IMG/VR virus record: IMGVR_UViG_2711768004_000001
From: a virus
Taxonomy: Duplodnaviria; Heunggongvirae; Uroviricota; Caudoviricetes
Length of the DNA stretch: 7,803 nucleotides
Strand: one strand, 5' to 3'
Numbering within the stretch: the first letter of the stretch is position 1; the number at the start of each line of letters is the position of its first letter. Below the pieces are notes generated by a model, which searched no databases, was not told the DNA's origin, and saw nothing but the letters and a program-made list of their open reading frames with translations. The translations under genes and the position numbers were made by a program. Positions 1 through 5,967 of the stretch are shown here, one piece after another.

Positions 1-34
1 CTCCAATGACTAGTCTAAAAACTAGTATTAAGAC

Positions 35-54
35 TATCACTTATTTAAGTGATA
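35..54. promoter_or_regulatory. 20-bp near-perfect palindrome TATCACTTA-TT-TAAGTGATA (operator-like site) upstream of the endolysin gene
   Basis: Read directly: 9-bp arms TATCACTTA / TAAGTGATA are exact reverse complements, separated by 2 bp, 55 bp upstream of the endolysin ATG. The outer TATCAC/GTGATA hexamers resemble lambdoid repressor/Cro operator half-sites. Two ACTAGT hexamers (9-14, 21-26) lie just upstream. Confidence 0.3.
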
Positions 55-108
55 CTGGTTGTCTGGAGATTCAGGGGGCCAGTCTAGTAAGGCTGCGAGA
101 GGTGAATA

Positions 109-488: not shown

Positions 489-767
489 NNNNNNNNNNNN
501 NNNNNNNNNNNNNNNNNNNNNNNNNNNNNNNNNNNNNNNNNNNNNNNNNNNNNNNNNNNNNNNNNNNNNNNNNNNNNNNNNNNNNNNNNNNNNNNNNNNN
601 NNNNNNNNNNNNNNNNNNNNNNNNNNNNNNNNNNNNNNNNNNNNNNNNNNNNNNNNNNNNNNNNNNNNNNNNNNNNNNNNNNNNNNNNNNNNNNNNNNNN
701 NNNNNNNNNNNNNNNNNNNNNNNNNNNNNNNNNNNNNNNNNNNNNNNNNNNNNNNNNNNNNNNNNNN
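489..767. other. Run of 279 N (assembly gap or masked sequence)
   Basis: Contiguous n characters. Hides the endolysin 3' end and the 5' ends of Rz and Rz1. Gap length is probably not the true length. Confidence 0.99.
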
Positions 768-950
768 AAATGCCCTGTGCCATCCTCAGCCGAAACCTCC
801 AGCGCCTCCGGCATGGGCAATGATGCCACCGTCGAACTCTCTCCAGTTGCTGGACGAAACGTTCTCGGTATCCGGGACGGAATCATCAGCGACCAGACAG
901 CATTGAGAATGCTTCAGGAGTACATCAGGATCCAATGCCTTGGGGGGTAG
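768..950 (+). CDS. Rz-like inner-membrane spanin (i-spanin), C-terminal portion; 5' end in N-run
   Basis: Frame ending TAG 948-950 translates ...ASGMGNDATVELSPVAGRNVLGIRDGIISDQTALRMLQEYIRIQCLGG. This is comparable to the lambda Rz C-terminus as recalled (ASGVDNAASPRLADTAERDYFTLRERLITMQKQLEGTQKYINEQCR), including the penultimate Cys. Position directly after the endolysin. Confidence 0.6.
   Translation, partial: KCPVPSSAETSSASGMGNDATVELSPVAGRNVLGIRDGIISDQTALRMLQEYIRIQCLGG
769..906 (+). CDS. Rz1-like outer-membrane lipoprotein spanin (o-spanin), C-terminal proline-rich part, embedded in the +1 frame of Rz
   Basis: +1 frame relative to Rz reads ...CHPQPKPPAPPAWAMMPPSNSL..., stop TGA 904-906. 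Resembles the lambda Rz1 motif KPPPPPAWIMQPP as recalled. Signal peptide and lipobox would be in the gap. Confidence 0.55.
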   Translation, partial: NALCHPQPKPPAPPAWAMMPPSNSLQLLDETFSVSGTESSATRQH

Positions 951-1003
951 CGGTAATTTTACTCATTATCCTTCAAATCAGATTCTGTTGTCAGAGGAAT
1001 GGG

Positions 1004-1030
1004 GGAAGCTGGATTCGCAAGAGCTTTTTA
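1004..1030 (+). terminator. Weak hairpin followed by T-run downstream of Rz (possible intrinsic terminator)
   Basis: AAGCT (1006-1010) pairs with AGCTT (1022-1026), 11-nt loop, followed by TTTTTA (1025-1030). Short stem, so weak. Confidence 0.2.
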
Positions 1031-1038
1031 TGGGCAGT

Positions 1039-1548
1039 TTAGCTAAAAAAAGGCAACACGAAGCTAAAACTACCAACATAAAGTGCTGACCAGCTAGCAG
1101 CTGAAATCAGACTCACTGTATACACTTTCACTGGATGAAGTTGCAACATTCCTGCCACCAAAGGAGCAATATAACGCAGCACGGCGATAAAGCGCGAAGT
1201 GAAAAGTATTGACACAGAGTTATTTTGCAACTGAAGGCGAACCCGTTCTATTGTATTGGAACGGCTTGATATTATACATGCAAGTTGAGGGATATGCCCA
1301 ATTATTATACCAAGATGGTAATTAACGATAGTACCGCACCATGCGCCACTCATGACCGTGATTCCAGCTTCCCATGGTGAAAGAGTCGTCTTGCTGACTG
1401 TAATTACAGTGGCCATCATAATTGATGCTGGTGGCAATATCGCCGAAATGAGTAAAGTGGATTTTGTGAACGCTATTATAAAAAGAAGCCCCCATAGGCG
1501 ATATGGATGAAGTACAAAATAGTTCATCAAAGCATTTATCCACTCCAT
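1039..1548 (-). CDS. DedA/YqaA-family small polytopic inner-membrane protein; reverse-oriented AT-rich moron
   Basis: 169-codon ORF on the minus strand. ATG at 1548-1546 is preceded by AGGA with 9-nt spacing (the track's first codon is TTG at 1551). Stop TAA at 1041-1039. Several hydrophobic segments. Motif FTSRFIAVLRYIAPLVAGM resembles the DedA/YqaA signature (F-x-x-R-F-x-P-x-x-R-x-x-x-P-x-x-AG). Visibly AT-rich versus the flanking phage genes and opposite in orientation to the late operon. Confidence 0.55.
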   Translation of the reverse strand: MEWINALMNYFVLHPYRLWGLLFIIAFTKSTLLISAILPPASIMMATVITVSKTTLSPWEAGITVMSGAWCGTIVNYHLGIIIGHIPQLACIISSRSNTIERVRLQLQNNSVSILFTSRFIAVLRYIAPLVAGMLQLHPVKVYTVSLISAASWSALYVGSFSFVLPFFS

Positions 1549-1601
1549 CAATGTCTTTCCTTCTGTGAATTTTTCTTTGCTATTTAACCGTGATACGACT
1601 T

Positions 1602-1631
1602 AATTTAGGCTTAAACACCTTACATTTACAA
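1602..1631 (-). promoter_or_regulatory. Candidate sigma70-like promoter for the reverse-strand moron
   Basis: On the minus strand: TTGTAA (plus 1631-1626), 18-nt spacer, TAAATT (plus 1607-1602), about 50 nt upstream of the moron ATG. Pattern match only. Confidence 0.15.
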
Positions 1632-1634
1632 GGT

Positions 1635-1673
1635 ACTCCTGTGGGGGGCCCTGCCACGGAGCGTCGCAGGAGT
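1635..1673. repeat. GC-rich inverted repeat (ACTCCTG ... CAGGAGT) enclosing a G/C-rich core; candidate terminase/cos-type site or regulatory hairpin
   Basis: 7-bp arms 1635-1641 and 1667-1673 are exact reverse complements around a 25-nt core (TGGGGGGCCCTGCCACGGAGCGTCG). The core holds an inner CCTGC/GCAGG inverted repeat and a GGGCCC palindrome. It is a GC-rich block in an otherwise AT-rich intergenic region, 70 bp upstream of the small-terminase start. No U-tract on either strand, so not a classic intrinsic terminator. Confidence 0.3.
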
Positions 1674-1745
1674 GAGTGATGAGGAAGAATTAAAGCAACC
1701 TATTGTGACAGGCAGCGATAACAGTAAATCACAGGAAGCATAATC

Positions 1746-2510
1746 ATGGCAAAACCGGACTGGGAGGCCATCGAATCGGCATACCGGGCCGGAGTCCTTA
1801 GCCTCCGTGATATAGGCGAGAAATACGGCGTTACAGAAGGGGCTATCAGGAAGAGGGCCAAAAAGCTTGGTTGGGCACGCAGTGGCGGTACGCAGGTTTG
1901 CAAAAATGGTACGCAAAAAAGGAAAGTGCGTACCAGCAGAAAGCCTGCCATTACTGGCCTTACACAAAAAAGTACGCAACTAAAAACAGAATCTACACCG
2001 GATACGAAACCGATACGCGGAATGCGTACCGATCCCCCGACTAACCCATTCCAACCCGGTAACCAGCAGGCATTAAAACACGGTGGTTATGCCCGTCGCC
2101 TTCTGCTCAAAGATGAGGTGATAGAGGACGCTAAAGCGTTGACGCTCGAGGACGAATTATTTCGCCTTCGTGCTAACAACCTTGTCGCTGCAGAGAATAT
2201 TGGTCGGTGGTTGGTGTCGCTGGAAGATGCTAATGGGGACCAGGAAAGGAAGATGCTGATTGAAAATATCAGCGCCGCCGAGAAAGCAATGATGCGCAAT
2301 ACAGTTCGTATTGAGTCCATCGTTGGCACGCTTGCGACGGTAGGAAAAATATTTGCTGATACAGCCTACCGCAAGGCCGCCACTGATAAGGTGTCTCTGG
2401 AGGCTGATCGTCTTCGCCGTGATGCAGGTATTGATGATGGCAATGGAGAGCGTGACCTCAATGACTTCTACTCTGACATCCAAACCGACGCTGAATCCGG
2501 CTTTACGTAG
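1746..2510 (+). CDS. Terminase small subunit (N-terminal HTH DNA-binding domain)
   Basis: RBS AGGAAG 9 nt upstream of ATG 1746. N-terminus MAKPDWEAIESAYRAGVLSLRDIGEKYGVTEGAIRKRAKKLGW is a typical terminase small-subunit HTH. A basic low-complexity linker follows. Sits immediately upstream of, and overlapping, the large terminase gene. Confidence 0.85.
   Translation: MAKPDWEAIESAYRAGVLSLRDIGEKYGVTEGAIRKRAKKLGWARSGGTQVCKNGTQKRKVRTSRKPAITGLTQKSTQLKTESTPDTKPIRGMRTDPPTNPFQPGNQQALKHGGYARRLLLKDEVIEDAKALTLEDELFRLRANNLVAAENIGRWLVSLEDANGDQERKMLIENISAAEKAMMRNTVRIESIVGTLATVGKIFADTAYRKAATDKVSLEADRLRRDAGIDDGNGERDLNDFYSDIQTDAESGFT
1887..2040. repeat. Cluster of direct and inverted GTACGCA repeats inside the small-terminase gene (candidate pac / terminase recognition site)
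   Basis: GGTACGCA at 1887-1894 and 1908-1915, GTACGCAA at 1972-1979, inverted TGCGTACC at 1927-1934 and 2033-2040. Copies 1908-1915 and 1927-1934 form an 8-bp inverted repeat with an 11-bp A-rich spacer. Confidence 0.3.
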
Positions 2511-3864
2511 TTTCTGGACTATGCGGGCACGTAACAAAGTGCTTTATGGTGGTCGGTCATCGTCAAAATCATGGGATGCCGCTGGCATTGCCATATTTCT
2601 GTCGAATAAATACACCCTGCGTTTTTGTTGTGCCCGTCAGATCCAGAATAAAATCGAAGAGTCGGTGTATACCCTGCTCAAAATTCAGATAGACAGGTTT
2701 GGTCTGCGGCACCGTTTCCGTATTCTGAACAACAAAATCATTAACCGGGTTACTGGCTCGGAATTTGTTTTTTATGGATTATGGCGCAACATCGAAGAAA
2801 TTAAGTCACTGGAGGGGATCGATGTGTTGTGGCTGGAAGAAGCCCACGCACTGACGGAATACCAGTGGAAAATTCTGGAGCCAACGATCCGTAAAGAGGG
2901 TTCGGAATGCTGGTTCATATTCAACCCCGGACTTGTTACTGATTTCGTCTGGCGCAACTTCGTTGTTGATCCGCCCGAAGGCACTCTCATCCGCAAAATT
3001 AACTATGACGAAAATCCGTTTCTGTCTGACACCATGCTTAAGGTTATCGACGCGGCGCGACGCCGTGATCCGGATGGTTTTAAACATGTGTATGAGGGCG
3101 TTCCGGAGTCTGATGATGATGCGGCAATCATCAAACTGTCTTGGATAGAAGCCGCAGTGGATGCGCACAAAACGTTAAATTTCGAACCCAGTGGAAGAAA
3201 GCGTATTGGCTTTGACGTGGCTGACAGTGGTACAGATAAGTGCGCTAACGTTTACCGTCACGGATCCGTTGTTTTCTGGGCCGACGAATGGAAGGCCAAA
3301 GAAGATGAATTACTGAAGAGCTGCCAGCGTACTTATCAGGCGGCGCTGGAGCGTGAAGCAGATATTGTTTACGACTCTATCGGTGTTGGTGCGTCTGCCG
3401 GTGCTAAATTCTCTGAAATTAACGCTGACCGGAAGAGCGAGAACGCATACGCGCGACGTGTGAATTACCAGAGGTTTAACGCCGGTGCTGGTGTGCATGA
3501 GCCAGATGACGAGTACAACGGCATCCCCAACAAAGACTTTTTCGCAAATCTTAAGGCTCAGGCATGGTGGCTGGTGGCTGACCGTTTCAGAAATACGTTT
3601 AACGCCATTAACAACGGAGAACAGTATCCTGTGGATGAGCTGATCAGCATAGATTCTCGTTGTCCGTTGCTTGAAAAGCTGAAACTGGAACTGACAACAC
3701 CTCATCGTGATTTCGACCGTAACGGACGTGTGATGGTCGAAAGTAAAAAAGACCTCGCAAAACGCGAGATACCGTCACCAAACGTTGCTGATGCATTCAT
3801 TATGGCCTTCGCGCCAATCGATACATCGCTGGATATCTGGGAACAGCTGGGGAGACAGGCCTGA
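2461..3864 (+). CDS. Terminase large subunit (Terminase_6/PBSX-like ATPase-nuclease)
   Basis: Long ORF with P-loop-like LYGGRSSSKSW near the N-terminus and later blocks (IKSLEGIDVLWLEEAHALT, WFIFNPG, FVVDPPEG, AIIKLSWIEAAVDAHK) that match recalled P22/Sf6-type large terminases. Start chosen at ATG 2461 (GGAG 2445-2448; N-terminus MTST...). Alternative in-frame ATGs at 2434, 2437 and 2443. The track ORF start at 2353 is probably read-through inside the small-terminase gene. Stop TGA 3862-3864. Confidence 0.88.
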   Translation: MTSTLTSKPTLNPALRSFWTMRARNKVLYGGRSSSKSWDAAGIAIFLSNKYTLRFCCARQIQNKIEESVYTLLKIQIDRFGLRHRFRILNNKIINRVTGSEFVFYGLWRNIEEIKSLEGIDVLWLEEAHALTEYQWKILEPTIRKEGSECWFIFNPGLVTDFVWRNFVVDPPEGTLIRKINYDENPFLSDTMLKVIDAARRRDPDGFKHVYEGVPESDDDAAIIKLSWIEAAVDAHKTLNFEPSGRKRIGFDVADSGTDKCANVYRHGSVVFWADEWKAKEDELLKSCQRTYQAALEREADIVYDSIGVGASAGAKFSEINADRKSENAYARRVNYQRFNAGAGVHEPDDEYNGIPNKDFFANLKAQAWWLVADRFRNTFNAINNGEQYPVDELISIDSRCPLLEKLKLELTTPHRDFDRNGRVMVESKKDLAKREIPSPNVADAFIMAFAPIDTSLDIWEQLGRQA

Positions 3865-5330
3865 TGGCACGAAACAAACAAGCCCTGCGGCGAACTGTGC
3901 AGGCCACAGCTGATGGTTATGAGAATTTTATTGCCCGCGTAGGGATGCAGACACCTAACCAGCACTCAGCATCCACCTACCGGGCTAATTTCACCAGTCG
4001 TAACCGCATGCTGGTGGAATGGTCCTATCGTTCATCCTAGATCATCGGCGAAGCAGTCGATGCTATCCCGGATGATATGACCCGCAAAGGCATTCGCATC
4101 ACTTCGGAAATTGATGCAAAAGATCGTGGCATTCTCGAATCACAACTGGATGAGTTGCAAATCTGGGATGCGCTGAATGACGTGCTGAAATGGTCGCGCC
4201 TCTACGGCGGCGCGGTGGGTTTCATCATGATTGAGGGGTAGGCACCAATGACCCCGCTGCGACCCGAAACCATCGGTAAGGGCAAGTTTAAGGGGATTCT
4301 CCCGCTCGACCGCTGGATGGTCGACCCGGCACTGACCCGCCGCATTAAAGATATGGGGCCGGACCTGGGTAAACCTGAGTTTTACGATGTGGTGACCACA
4401 GCAACGGGAATTCCTGCCTGGCGCATTCATCACAGTCGCCTGATTCGCTTTGATGGCGTCACGTTGCCATTTCAGCAGAAGATGACCGAGAACGAATGGG
4501 GAATGTCGGTTGTAGAGCGTATCTGGGATCGTCTTACCGCGTTCGACAGCGCTACTGTCGGCGCGGCGCAGCTGGTCTACAAGGCGCATTTGCGTACCTA
4601 CAGCGTGGAGAAGCTACGCGAGCTTATCGCACTTGGTGGTCCTGCGTATGAAGCGTTGCTGAAGAATATCGACCTGATTCGACAGTTCCAGAGTAATGAA
4701 GGCATGACGCTCATGGACTCGCGGGATAAGTTTGAAACCCATCAGTACAGCTTCAGTGGTCTGGATGACATCCTTTCGCAGTTTGTAGAACAGATTAGTG
4801 GCGCTGTTGGTATCCCACTGGTGCGGTTGTTCGGACAGTCCCCGAAAGGATTTTCTACCGGTGATGCAGACCTTGCCAACTATTACGATCGCATCAGTTC
4901 GTTGCAGGAGAGGCGTTTACGTCTTCCGGTGCGGCGGATACTGGACATCATGCATCGTTCGGAACTTGGCAAGCCGCTGCCGGACGATTTCACGTTTGAG
5001 TTTAACCCGCTCTGGCAAATGTCTGATGTCGATCGCTCAACGGTGGCGTTAAACACCACCAACGCAATCAGTACGGCGCTGGGTGATGGTCTGATGACAC
5101 TGAAAGCCGCTATGACTGATTTGCGAGAAAATTCTGACGTAACCGGCATCGGGGCATCCATTACCGACGAGGACATCGAGAATGCCGAAGATGAAGCGCC
5201 GCCCGGCATCGGCGAACCTGATGACGAACCGCAGGAGCCGTCAGGCGGAAATCCGGTATCGAACCAGCCTACGCAGGATAGCGAGGGCGGTCGGAGACAT
5301 CGTAAATGGTCGCTACGATGGTTCAAATGA
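3864..5330 (+). pseudogene. Portal protein gene interrupted by two in-frame TAG codons (intact ORF remnant 4248-5330)
   Basis: ATG 3864 overlaps the terminase stop (TGATG). A single frame is readable from 3864 to 5330, with TAG at 4038-4040 and TAG at 4239-4241 as the only stops. Translation continues sensibly through both (…EWSYRSS*IIGEAVDAIPDD… and …FIMIEG*APMTPLRPE…). Acidic C-terminal tail. Position between large terminase and the Mu-F-like gene fits a portal. Confidence 0.75.
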
Positions 5331-5964
5331 CAGTATCACGGAAATTATTGCGGCGCTGGAGCGTTACAGTGAAATCATCACCCCCTGGGCGACAAAGGTC
5401 GCGGAAAACTTTACTGCGGACCTAACCCGGCAGAACGAGAAAGTTTGGCGGCAACACAGCAAGAACATCAGTCGCGAGCTCCGCAATCTTGTGGAAAGCG
5501 CTCCTGTGGGCCAGGTGATGCAATCCATCATCGCCGAACAGGTCAAGTACATCAAATCTCTGCCTCTCGAGGCCGCAGACAGGGTGTACGACATCCAGAA
5601 CAAAGCGATAGAGGCTGTTGTCACCGGTGGTCGGGCGGAGCAGTTTGCTAAAGAGATTGCATCTACCGGCGATGTTGCTAAGTCTAGGGCCGATCTGATT
5701 GCCCGAACGGAACTGGGAAGAGCAACGGGCGCGCTGGATATGGCCCGAGCGATAGCTATTGGCTCGGATGGTTATATTTGGCGTACAGCCGATGATGGCG
5801 ATGTCCGAGATTCCCACGATCACATGAAAGGTAAATTCGTCCGCTGGGATTCACCTCCAACTTTGGACGGCATGACCGGCCACGCGGGCGAGCTGCCAAA
5901 CTGCCGCTGCTATAAAGAGATCGTGTTTGTTCGCGTTCCATTCGCAATGAAAAGGGCAGCATAA
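5182..5964 (+). CDS. Head morphogenesis protein (phage Mu F-like / SPP1 gp7 family minor head protein)
   Basis: RBS GAGGA 8 nt upstream of ATG 5182. C-terminal region DDGDVRDSHDHMKGKFVRWDSPP...PNCRC is typical of the Mu F/gp7 family. Follows the portal. Overlaps the portal 3' end by 149 nt; an alternative ATG at 5221 exists. Confidence 0.8.
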   Translation: MPKMKRRPASANLMTNRRSRQAEIRYRTSLRRIARAVGDIVNGRYDGSNDSITEIIAALERYSEIITPWATKVAENFTADLTRQNEKVWRQHSKNISRELRNLVESAPVGQVMQSIIAEQVKYIKSLPLEAADRVYDIQNKAIEAVVTGGRAEQFAKEIASTGDVAKSRADLIARTELGRATGALDMARAIAIGSDGYIWRTADDGDVRDSHDHMKGKFVRWDSPPTLDGMTGHAGELPNCRCYKEIVFVRVPFAMKRAA

Positions 5965-5967
5965 CCC

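What the first reader, a model, noticed from the sequence alone, without database searches (positions are those of the whole stretch)
3864..5330. Portal gene carries two in-frame TAG (amber) codons
The portal frame is continuous from the ATG overlapping the terminase stop to 5330, except for TAG at 4038-4040 and TAG at 4239-4241. Flanking translation stays protein-like through both, so they look like point nonsense changes, not frame loss. The first likely derives from TGG (Trp) in the context ...YRSS-W-IIGEAV. Most likely this is pseudogenisation of an essential gene in a decaying prophage. Less likely it is a suppressor-dependent amber-mutant phage or sequencing error. Every other visible gene is free of in-frame TAG, which argues against stop-codon reassignment.
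Basis: seen in the sequence. Interest (0 to 1): 0.55.

Follow-up and report, generated by a model that had tools for sequence, protein, structure and literature searches.

The report
Dead portal gene in Shigella prophage
The two in-frame TAG codons are real point mutations that killed the portal gene of a prophage remnant fixed in Shigella sonnei; the remnant has already lost its capsid and tail genes, so this is ordinary gene decay.

Summary
The frame 3864-5330 is one 488-codon portal gene (Pfam PF06381; homologous to the solved Pam3 and E217 portals). It is interrupted only by TAG at 4038-4040 and TAG at 4239-4241. Every intact homologue examined has TGG (Trp59) and CAG (Gln126) at these codons and starts at the same ATG. 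These include E. coli copies 99.8% identical, an isolated phage, and Pantoea and Apirhabdus copies 86-87% identical. The changes are therefore W59* (G>A) and Q126* (C>T).

The window is Shigella sonnei. The three fragments (58, 54 and 360 aa) occur as exact sequences on more than 1000 contigs, including strains 53G and Ss046, so sequencing error is excluded. Allele-specific probes found neither TAG allele in any of 5,426 complete E. coli genomes. Control probes with the ancestral alleles hit 363 and 142 genomes.

The element is a dead remnant. IS2 sits in the holin gene. IS1 cuts the element at the first codon of the major capsid gene, and chromosomal genes follow. W59* lies at the methylated position of a Dcm site (CCTGG to CCTAG), a known deamination hotspot.

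TAG reassignment, suppression and a laboratory amber mutant are not supported. This is an ordinary, already annotated pseudogene of low interest.

The parts
3864..5330 (+). Portal protein pseudogene (PF06381 Phage_portal_3 / DUF1073; 488 codons in intact relatives)
   Evidence: Ungapped alignment at 99.8% to annotated intact 488-aa genes. The intact form matches Pfam at E=3e-106 over aa 55-402. PDB matches are the Pam3 portal 8hds and the E217 gp19 portal 8fvh.
4038..4040 (+). Amber codon 59, TGG>TAG (W59*), from G>A at 4039 inside the ancestral Dcm site CCTGG (4036-4040)
   Evidence: All 8 intact homologues examined have TGG. A probe carrying the TAG allele found 0 E. coli genomes; the ancestral-allele control found 142.
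4239..4241 (+). Amber codon 126, CAG>TAG (Q126*), from C>T at 4239; not in a Dcm site
   Evidence: All 8 intact homologues examined have CAG. The degenerate pattern scan of one genome per species found only the C allele. A probe carrying the TAG allele found 0 E. coli genomes; the control found 363.
4786..4786 (+). Third S. sonnei-specific substitution in the portal gene, C>T, GCA>GTA (A308V)
3864..4040 (+). Residual ORF 1 (58 aa), the N-terminal portal fragment
   Evidence: Called as a separate 'putative bacteriophage protein' in S. sonnei annotations.
4077..4241 (+). Residual ORF 2 (54 aa), an internal portal fragment
   Evidence: Matches PF06381 profile positions 24-76. Listed in 2758 blocks of the assembly collection.
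4248..5330 (+). Residual ORF 3 (360 aa, from Met129). It lacks the first ~83 positions of the portal domain. GAGGGG lies 9 nt upstream of its ATG.
   Evidence: Matches PF06381 profile positions 84-355. The exact protein is named in S. sonnei Ss046 (Q3Z426), and strain 53G carries it. Upstream sequence.
2461..3864 (+). Terminase large subunit gene, intact; its stop overlaps the portal ATG by one base
5221..5964 (+). Mu F-like head morphogenesis gene, intact; overlaps the portal 3' end
1..86 (.). End of an IS2 copy inserted in the 3' end of the holin gene
   Evidence: 100% match to the flank of an annotated IS2 transposase in L002. IS3-family transposase genes lie upstream in the S. sonnei loci. 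The 5-bp overlap of the flanking alignments is read as a target duplication.
7714..7803 (.). End of an IS1 copy that truncates the prophage right after the ATG (7710-7712) of the DUF2184 major capsid gene
   Evidence: Homology to intact prophages ends at 7713. IS1 InsA/InsB genes follow in the S. sonnei loci, then an invertase fragment and chromosomal pgl.

Best explanation
This is the portal gene of a lambdoid-type prophage remnant in the Shigella sonnei chromosome. Two independent G:C>A:T transitions inactivated it: TGG>TAG at codon 59 and CAG>TAG at codon 126. Both became fixed in the S. sonnei clone. The first falls on the 5-methylcytosine position of a Dcm site (CCTGG>CCTAG), so it most likely arose by spontaneous deamination at a known hotspot. 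The second is an ordinary C>T transition. A third change, A308V, is also non-synonymous. Translation from ATG 3864 ends after 58 residues, so no full-length portal can be made. The remnant cannot form particles anyway. IS2 interrupts its holin gene, and an IS1-associated deletion removed everything from the first codon of the major capsid gene through the tail genes. Shown here: the ancestral codons, the portal identity, fixation across independent assemblies, and the truncation of the element. Inferred: the deamination mechanism, the neutrality of the changes, and the lack of expression.
For: 1. Stops and frame.
2. Ancestral TGG and CAG in intact, annotated 488-aa genes that start at the same ATG. 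These are E. coli FDAARGOS_944 and VL40, isolated phage vB_EcoM-606R2, S. flexneri SFBU1023, E. coli ECMA0423, Pantoea stewartii and Apirhabdus apintestini.
3. Portal identity, including the N-terminal part: Pfam PF06381 covers aa 55-402, and the Pam3 portal 8hds aligns from query residue 15.
4. Source and fixation: the exact 360, 58 and 54-aa fragments carry S. sonnei names (Ss046) and sit on more than 1000 contigs, in 2576-2758 blocks of the collection. 18 of 19 fetched S. sonnei loci (chromosomal and IMG/VR) are 100% identical across the portion of the gene each covers; L014 has a 1-nt gap. They include 53G (genotype 2.8) and 03_0142 (genotype 3.7.29.1.4), identified through PMC12795559.
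5. Neither TAG allele occurs in 5,426 complete E. coli genomes, while ancestral-allele control probes hit 363 and 142 genomes.
6. Dead element: IS2 and IS1 ends sit at the window edges. After IS1 come a 43-aa invertase fragment, then pgl, ybhD, ybhJ and ybhC.
7. Mutation spectrum: 5 of the 6 lineage-specific substitutions are G:C>A:T, matching the general bacterial bias (PMC2936535).
8. Position 4039 is one of only 26 Dcm-methylated positions among 3565 G/C positions. Dcm and very-short-patch repair context is from PMC3527292.
Against: Two stops among only six lineage-specific substitutions is somewhat more than a uniform model predicts: P(>=2) is about 0.02-0.03. All three portal changes are non-synonymous, while the three changes outside the portal are synonymous. 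That pattern could hint that the rest of the element was still under constraint, or that portal loss was favoured. With six events it is not significant, and the Dcm hotspot explains part of it. Lack of expression and lack of particle formation were not tested. The presence of dcm in S. sonnei was not checked here.
Confidence: 0.93

Rival explanations
1. The C-terminal 360-aa ORF (4248-5330) is expressed from its internal ATG and retained as a domesticated product, for example one that interferes with assembly of infecting phages. Alternatively, inactivation of the portal was itself selected, for example to prevent packaging or lysis from a still-inducible element.
For: The 360-aa ORF is intact in all S. 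sonnei loci, and a GAGGGG motif lies 9 nt upstream of its ATG. S. dysenteriae also has a 360-aa ORF from the same Met. Substitutions are 3 of 3 non-synonymous inside the portal and 3 of 3 synonymous outside it.
Against: The ORF is simply what remains downstream of the second stop, and the first ATG after any stop will define such an ORF. It lacks profile positions 1-83 of the portal domain. The S. dysenteriae copy has four radical amino-acid changes in 360 residues (W>R, P>L, P>L, R>W), which looks like relaxed constraint. S. sonnei is a young clone, so conservation within it says little. Six substitutions give no statistical power.
Confidence: 0.04
2. The TAGs are read through, either by a host or phage amber suppressor tRNA or by programmed readthrough, so a full-length portal is still made. 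This is the suppressor-dependent amber phage reading.
For: Both stops are amber, which a single supE or supF-type suppressor could read. Intact relatives of this prophage carry tRNA genes upstream of the lysis cassette.
Against: The window has no tRNA. The tRNAs in relatives are Met/Ile(CAT), Arg(TCT), Thr(TGT), Gly(TCC) and Val(TAC), and none has a CTA anticodon. In S. sonnei an IS has removed all but one of them. A neighbouring gene (1746-2510) uses TAG as its terminator. A full-length portal would be useless, because the capsid and tail genes are deleted. The allele occurs in assemblies from many independent projects, not in a mutagenised stock. Amber is also the commonest stop reachable by G:C>A:T transitions here: 95 of 170 possible cases.
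Confidence: 0.01
3. TAG is reassigned to a sense codon in this element (a recoded phage).
For: None beyond the two in-frame TAGs.
Against: In-frame TAGs occur in only one of seven genes. Near-identical relatives have TGG and CAG, two different amino acids, at the two sites. TAG terminates the 254-codon gene upstream of terL. No suppressor tRNA is present. The host is an Escherichia/Shigella bacterium that uses the standard code.
Confidence: 0.003
4. The TAGs are a sequencing or assembly error in this one record.
For: None.
Against: The identical sequence appears in Sanger-era (Ss046, 53G), short-read and long-read assemblies, on more than 1000 contigs.
Confidence: 0.002

Closest known systems
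Intact DUF1073/PF06381 portal genes of E. coli prophages and phages (WP_000113499.1 in E. coli FDAARGOS_944 and VL40; URC08706.1 of Escherichia phage vB_EcoM-606R2; Salmonella phage SEN34 portal)
   Same: Same gene at 98-99.8% nucleotide identity (85% for SEN34). Same start codon overlapping the terL stop. Same neighbours: terL, Mu F-like protein, DUF2213, cement protein.
   Different: Those genes are uninterrupted over 488 codons. The window copy has W59*, Q126* and A308V, and its element lacks the capsid and tail genes.
Solved portal proteins of Pseudomonas phages Pam3 (8hds) and E217 gp19 (8fvh)
   Same: Homologous over nearly the whole length by sequence (E=2e-37 and 1e-14). The neighbouring cement protein also matches the E217 gp24 / Pam3 gp6 family.
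   Different: They are distant relatives, and their function in this remnant is lost.
Nonsense and IS-mediated pseudogenes and prophage remnants of Shigella genomes, as described for Shigella reductive evolution (PMC7373316)
   Same: A host-restricted clone with IS expansion. The element is cut by IS2 and IS1, and point nonsense mutations are fixed by drift.
   Different: Nothing distinctive; this locus is one more example.
Amber-mutation hotspots at Dcm sites (5-methylcytosine deamination at CCWGG). The classical lacI amber hotspots are recalled from my own knowledge of Coulondre et al. 1978. Dcm and very-short-patch repair context is from PMC3527292.
   Same: W59* is CCTGG>CCTAG, the change expected from deamination of the bottom-strand 5-methylcytosine.
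   Different: Q126* (GCAGG) is outside any Dcm site. The mechanism is inferred from sequence context only.

Membership tests
Phage portal protein, Pfam PF06381 (Phage_portal_3 / DUF1073) | Profile HMM match above the curated gathering score | tested here: met
   The intact orthologue scores 355 bits (cut-off 33.8) over aa 55-402. The window fragments score 274.5 bits (360 aa) and 40 bits (54 aa).
Phage portal protein, Pfam PF06381 (Phage_portal_3 / DUF1073) | Sequence homology to experimentally solved portal dodecamers, including the N-terminal region upstream of 4248 | tested here: met
   Pam3 portal 8hds at E=2.2e-37 covers query 15-413. E217 gp19 8fvh at 1.1e-14 covers query 58-367.
Phage portal protein, Pfam PF06381 (Phage_portal_3 / DUF1073) | Position directly downstream of the large terminase and upstream of the head morphogenesis and scaffold genes | tested here: met
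Phage portal protein, Pfam PF06381 (Phage_portal_3 / DUF1073) | Uninterrupted reading frame able to give the full-length subunit | tested here: not met
   Stops at codons 59 and 126. It is therefore a pseudogene of this family, not a functional member.
Nonsense pseudogene in a defective prophage | Orthologues have sense codons at the stop positions and the same gene boundaries | tested here: met
   TGG and CAG in all 8 intact homologues examined. No E. coli genome has either TAG allele, and controls were positive.
Nonsense pseudogene in a defective prophage | Stops are real and inherited (present in independent assemblies of the lineage) | tested here: met
   More than 1000 contigs in 2576-2758 collection blocks. 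18 of 19 fetched S. sonnei loci are 100% identical across the portion of the gene each covers; L014 has a 1-nt gap. Lineages 2 and 3 are represented.
Nonsense pseudogene in a defective prophage | The element lacks other functions needed for a particle | tested here: met
   IS1 replaces the element from the start codon of the major capsid gene onward. Only an invertase fragment remains before chromosomal pgl. IS2 sits in the holin gene.
Nonsense pseudogene in a defective prophage | No full-length product and no particle formation | not testable with these tools
   Needs proteomics or induction experiments.
Stop-codon-reassigned (TAG-recoded) phage | In-frame TAG spread over many genes, TAG not used as a terminator, and a suppressor tRNA encoded | tested here: not met
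   In-frame TAG occurs in one of seven genes. Gene 1746-2510 ends in TAG. No tRNA is in the window and no CTA anticodon is nearby.
Suppressor-dependent amber (sus/am) phage mutant | A viable phage genome propagated on a suppressor host | tested here: not met
   The element is a chromosomal remnant without capsid and tail genes, found in assemblies from many projects. The complete tRNA set of the host was not available (not tested).

The most novel reading that the evidence does not exclude
Loss of the portal was not neutral. Either inactivation was favoured in the Shigella ancestor while the rest of the packaging module stayed under constraint (3 of 3 non-synonymous changes in the portal against 3 of 3 synonymous outside it). 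Or the 360-aa C-terminal fragment, which S. dysenteriae also carries from the same Met, has been kept as a domesticated product, for example to poison assembly of related infecting phages.
Probability: 0.04. Interest if true: 0.4.

Novelty: already known. Interest (0 to 1): 0.08.

Why it matters
It matters little beyond annotation. The three small 'bacteriophage protein' ORFs (58, 54 and 360 aa) in S. sonnei records should be read as one portal pseudogene. The locus is a clean example of how a prophage decays in a host-restricted clone, through IS insertion, an IS-associated deletion and G:C>A:T nonsense mutations, one of them at a Dcm deamination hotspot. The two TAG alleles are absent from all complete E. 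coli genomes searched. They could serve as lineage markers for S. sonnei, and possibly for S. dysenteriae in the case of Q126*.

Tried and rejected
1. I tried to fetch the S. dysenteriae Sd197 locus, to see whether its 360-aa ORF follows the same Q126* stop.
2. The genome-collection scan (one genome per species) returned only C-allele copies.
3. The metagenome scan for the T allele found nothing.
4. The IMG/VR scans returned only four contigs, all identical to the window.
5. An exact look-up showed that a 125-aa N-terminal fragment (W59 intact, ending at G125) exists on three unnamed Logan contigs. This hints at a Q126*-only allele, but I could not read the DNA.
6. A literature search for this specific pseudogene found nothing relevant.
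7. Rejected readings: a separate upstream gene, refuted by Pfam and PDB coverage and by the annotation of intact homologues; codon reassignment; sequencing error; a laboratory amber mutant.
8. I did not run structure prediction or the large protein searches, because the answer did not depend on them.

Full report
**Observation**

The frame that opens at ATG 3864 runs to TGA 5328-5330. Its A is shared with the TGA stop of the large terminase gene at 3862-3864. The frame contains exactly two internal stops, TAG at 4038-4040 (codon 59) and TAG at 4239-4241 (codon 126). The mechanical ORF list splits it into 58, 54 and 360-aa ORFs.

**What the gene is**

The 1467 nt align without gaps to annotated, intact 488-codon genes in 338 complete E. 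coli genomes and in seven phage records (six distinct phages). The best matches are 99.8% identical, with three mismatches. In those records the gene starts at the same ATG and lies between the large terminase and a Mu F-like head morphogenesis gene. A DUF2213 protein, a cement protein and a DUF2184 protein follow.

- The intact form matches Pfam PF06381 (Phage_portal_3) at E=3e-106 over residues 55-402.
- It matches the solved Pam3 portal (8hds, query residues 15-413) and the E217 gp19 portal (8fvh).
- The window's 54-aa fragment matches profile positions 24-76, and the 360-aa fragment matches positions 84-355.

Both stops therefore lie inside the portal protein.

**Ancestral codons**

A base-by-base comparison with the two closest intact copies (E. 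coli FDAARGOS_944 and VL40) gives G>A at 4039 (TGG>TAG, W59*), C>T at 4239 (CAG>TAG, Q126*) and C>T at 4786 (GCA>GTA, A308V). TGG and CAG are also present in:

- phage vB_EcoM-606R2;
- S. flexneri SFBU1023;
- E. coli ECMA0423 and E. coli SCPM-O-B-8794;
- the 86-87% identical copies of Pantoea stewartii and Apirhabdus apintestini.

I designed 55-nt megablast probes with the variant base at the centre, so that only the matching allele gives a 28-nt seed. The TAG probes found nothing in 5,426 complete E. coli genomes. The same probes with the ancestral base hit 363 and 142 genomes.

**Source, and whether the stops are real**

The exact 360, 58 and 54-aa products are in the public protein collection under Shigella sonnei names (Ss046, Q3Z426). 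Each is seen on more than 1000 contigs. The gene index lists them in 2576 and 2758 blocks.

All but one of the S. sonnei chromosomal loci fetched, and four IMG/VR contigs, are 100% identical to the window across the portion of the gene each covers. The exception is L014, with a single 1-nt gap. Sequencing error is excluded, and the alleles are fixed at least in lineages 2 and 3.

**State of the element**

- Window 1-86 is the end of an IS2 copy.
- In S. sonnei 53G the alignments to the intact prophage on either side of that IS overlap by 5 bp, inside the 3' end of the holin gene. I read this as the IS2 target duplication.
- Window 7714-7803 is an IS1 end. It begins right after the ATG (7710-7712) of the DUF2184 gene, annotated by family only and read here as the major capsid gene from its position.
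- In the S. sonnei loci, IS1 is followed by a 43-aa fragment that starts MLIGYVRVSTNDQ. I read this as the start of a DNA invertase. Then come the chromosomal genes pgl, ybhD, ybhJ and ybhC.

The capsid and tail module is therefore gone. The remaining genes in the window (dedA-family, a 254-codon gene, terL, Mu F-like, DUF2213, cement) have no internal stops.

**How the mutations arose**

In 768-7713 there are six S. sonnei-specific substitutions against both closest relatives, and five are G:C>A:T transitions. This agrees with the general mutational bias of bacteria seen under weak selection (PMC2936535).

The ancestral sequence around 4039 is CCTGG (4036-4040), a Dcm site. The G>A at 4039 is what deamination of the bottom-strand 5-methylcytosine produces. 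Only 26 of the 3565 G/C positions in the region are such positions. Dcm methylates the second C of CCWGG, and these positions are deamination hotspots (PMC3527292). The classical lacI amber hotspots are of this type (my own knowledge: Coulondre et al. 1978). Q126* lies in GCAGG, outside any Dcm site.

TAG is the commonest stop reachable by such transitions in these genes, accounting for 95 of 170 possibilities. Two ambers therefore need no special explanation.

**Is it more than chance?**

A uniform model gives P(>=2 stops among 6 substitutions) of about 0.02-0.03. All three portal changes alter the protein, while the three changes outside the portal are synonymous. This is mildly unusual, but it rests on six events, and the hotspot explains part of it. 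I record it as a weak hint, not a finding.

**Rivals**

- Codon reassignment is excluded. In-frame TAGs occur in only one of seven genes. The two sites correspond to two different amino acids in near-identical relatives. The 254-codon gene ends in TAG.
- Suppression is unsupported. There is no tRNA in the window. Nearby tRNAs in relatives have CAT, TCT, TGT, TCC and TAC anticodons. In S. sonnei an IS has removed all but one of them. A full-length portal would have no capsid to join in any case.
- A laboratory amber mutant does not fit an allele that recurs in assemblies from many independent projects.
- Domestication of the 360-aa fragment cannot be excluded but has no positive support. The S. 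dysenteriae homologue of that ORF carries four radical substitutions.

**Comparison with the known, and verdict**

This is a nonsense pseudogene of a PF06381 portal in an IS-riddled prophage remnant. That is typical of Shigella reductive evolution (PMC7373316). The fragments are already present in public annotation as three small ORFs. Novelty: already known. Interest: low.

Noticed in passing
window 489-767: A run of 279 N. In S. sonnei 53G the flanks are 402 nt apart (L008 6119-6520; 3' end of lysozyme rrrD plus most of the Rz-like lysis gene). So either the mask is not length-preserving or the source has a 123-nt deletion there.
   Followed up: partly
window 4036-4040: W59* is CCTGG>CCTAG, at the methylated position of a Dcm site. 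This is one of only 13 CCWGG sites in 768-7713 and the classic type of 5-methylcytosine deamination amber hotspot.
   Followed up: yes
window 768-7713: The six S. sonnei-specific substitutions split cleanly. Three outside the portal are all synonymous (dedA S95, 254-codon gene G153, terL I94). Three inside the portal all change the protein (W59*, Q126*, A308V). There are too few events for a test.
   Followed up: partly
P0003 (S. dysenteriae Sd197 / 1617, Q32EP4) and P0046: S. dysenteriae carries a 360-aa ORF from the same Met129, with ancestral A308 and four changes of its own. Because Met122 lies just upstream, a stop must fall in codons 123-128, most simply the same Q126*. An exact 125-aa fragment (W59 intact, ending at G125) exists on three unnamed contigs. 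Q126* may therefore be older than W59* and shared between Shigella lineages. The DNA could not be fetched.
   Followed up: partly
window 1-86 and L008 4385-5717: IS2 is inserted in the 3' end of the class II holin gene. The flanking alignments overlap by 5 bp, which I read as the target duplication.
   Followed up: yes
window 7710-7803; L008 13467-14640: IS1 starts one base after the ATG of the DUF2184 major capsid gene. Beyond IS1 only a 43-aa invertase-like fragment remains before pgl, so the head and tail module was lost in an IS1-associated deletion. A second IS1 copy lies about 3 kb further on, where ybhH and ybhI would lie in the E. coli K-12 gene order (from memory).
   Followed up: partly
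window 1039-1551 (- strand): An intact DedA-family (VTT domain) gene sits on the opposite strand between the lysis cassette and the packaging genes. It is conserved in the intact E. coli relatives (WP_011069285.1) and looks like a prophage cargo gene (moron).
   Followed up: no
names: Members of this portal family are variously named 'DUF1073 domain-containing protein', 'phage portal protein', 'phage minor head protein', 'Alpha/beta hydrolase' and 'anti-CBASS protein Acb1 family protein' (for example in E. coli C). The Acb1 name sits on proteins that match solved portals, so it looks like a naming artefact.
   Followed up: no
L002 (E. coli FDAARGOS_943) 2262-7101: A 99.8% identical prophage in E. 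coli is decaying independently. It has IS2 inserted in terL and an internal stop in the Mu F-like gene, while its portal is intact.
   Followed up: no
L001 1-228, L003 309-616, L008 2320-2393: Intact relatives carry a small tRNA cluster upstream of the holin: Met/Ile(CAT), Arg(TCT), Thr(TGT), and Gly(TCC) or Val(TAC). In S. sonnei 53G only the CAT tRNA survives, next to an IS.
   Followed up: partly
window 1746-2510: A 254-codon gene with no Pfam match overlaps the terL start, in the position where a small terminase subunit is expected. The related phage vB_EcoM-606R2 has a different, annotated terS and a longer terL there, so the packaging module upstream of about 3811 is mosaic.
   Followed up: no
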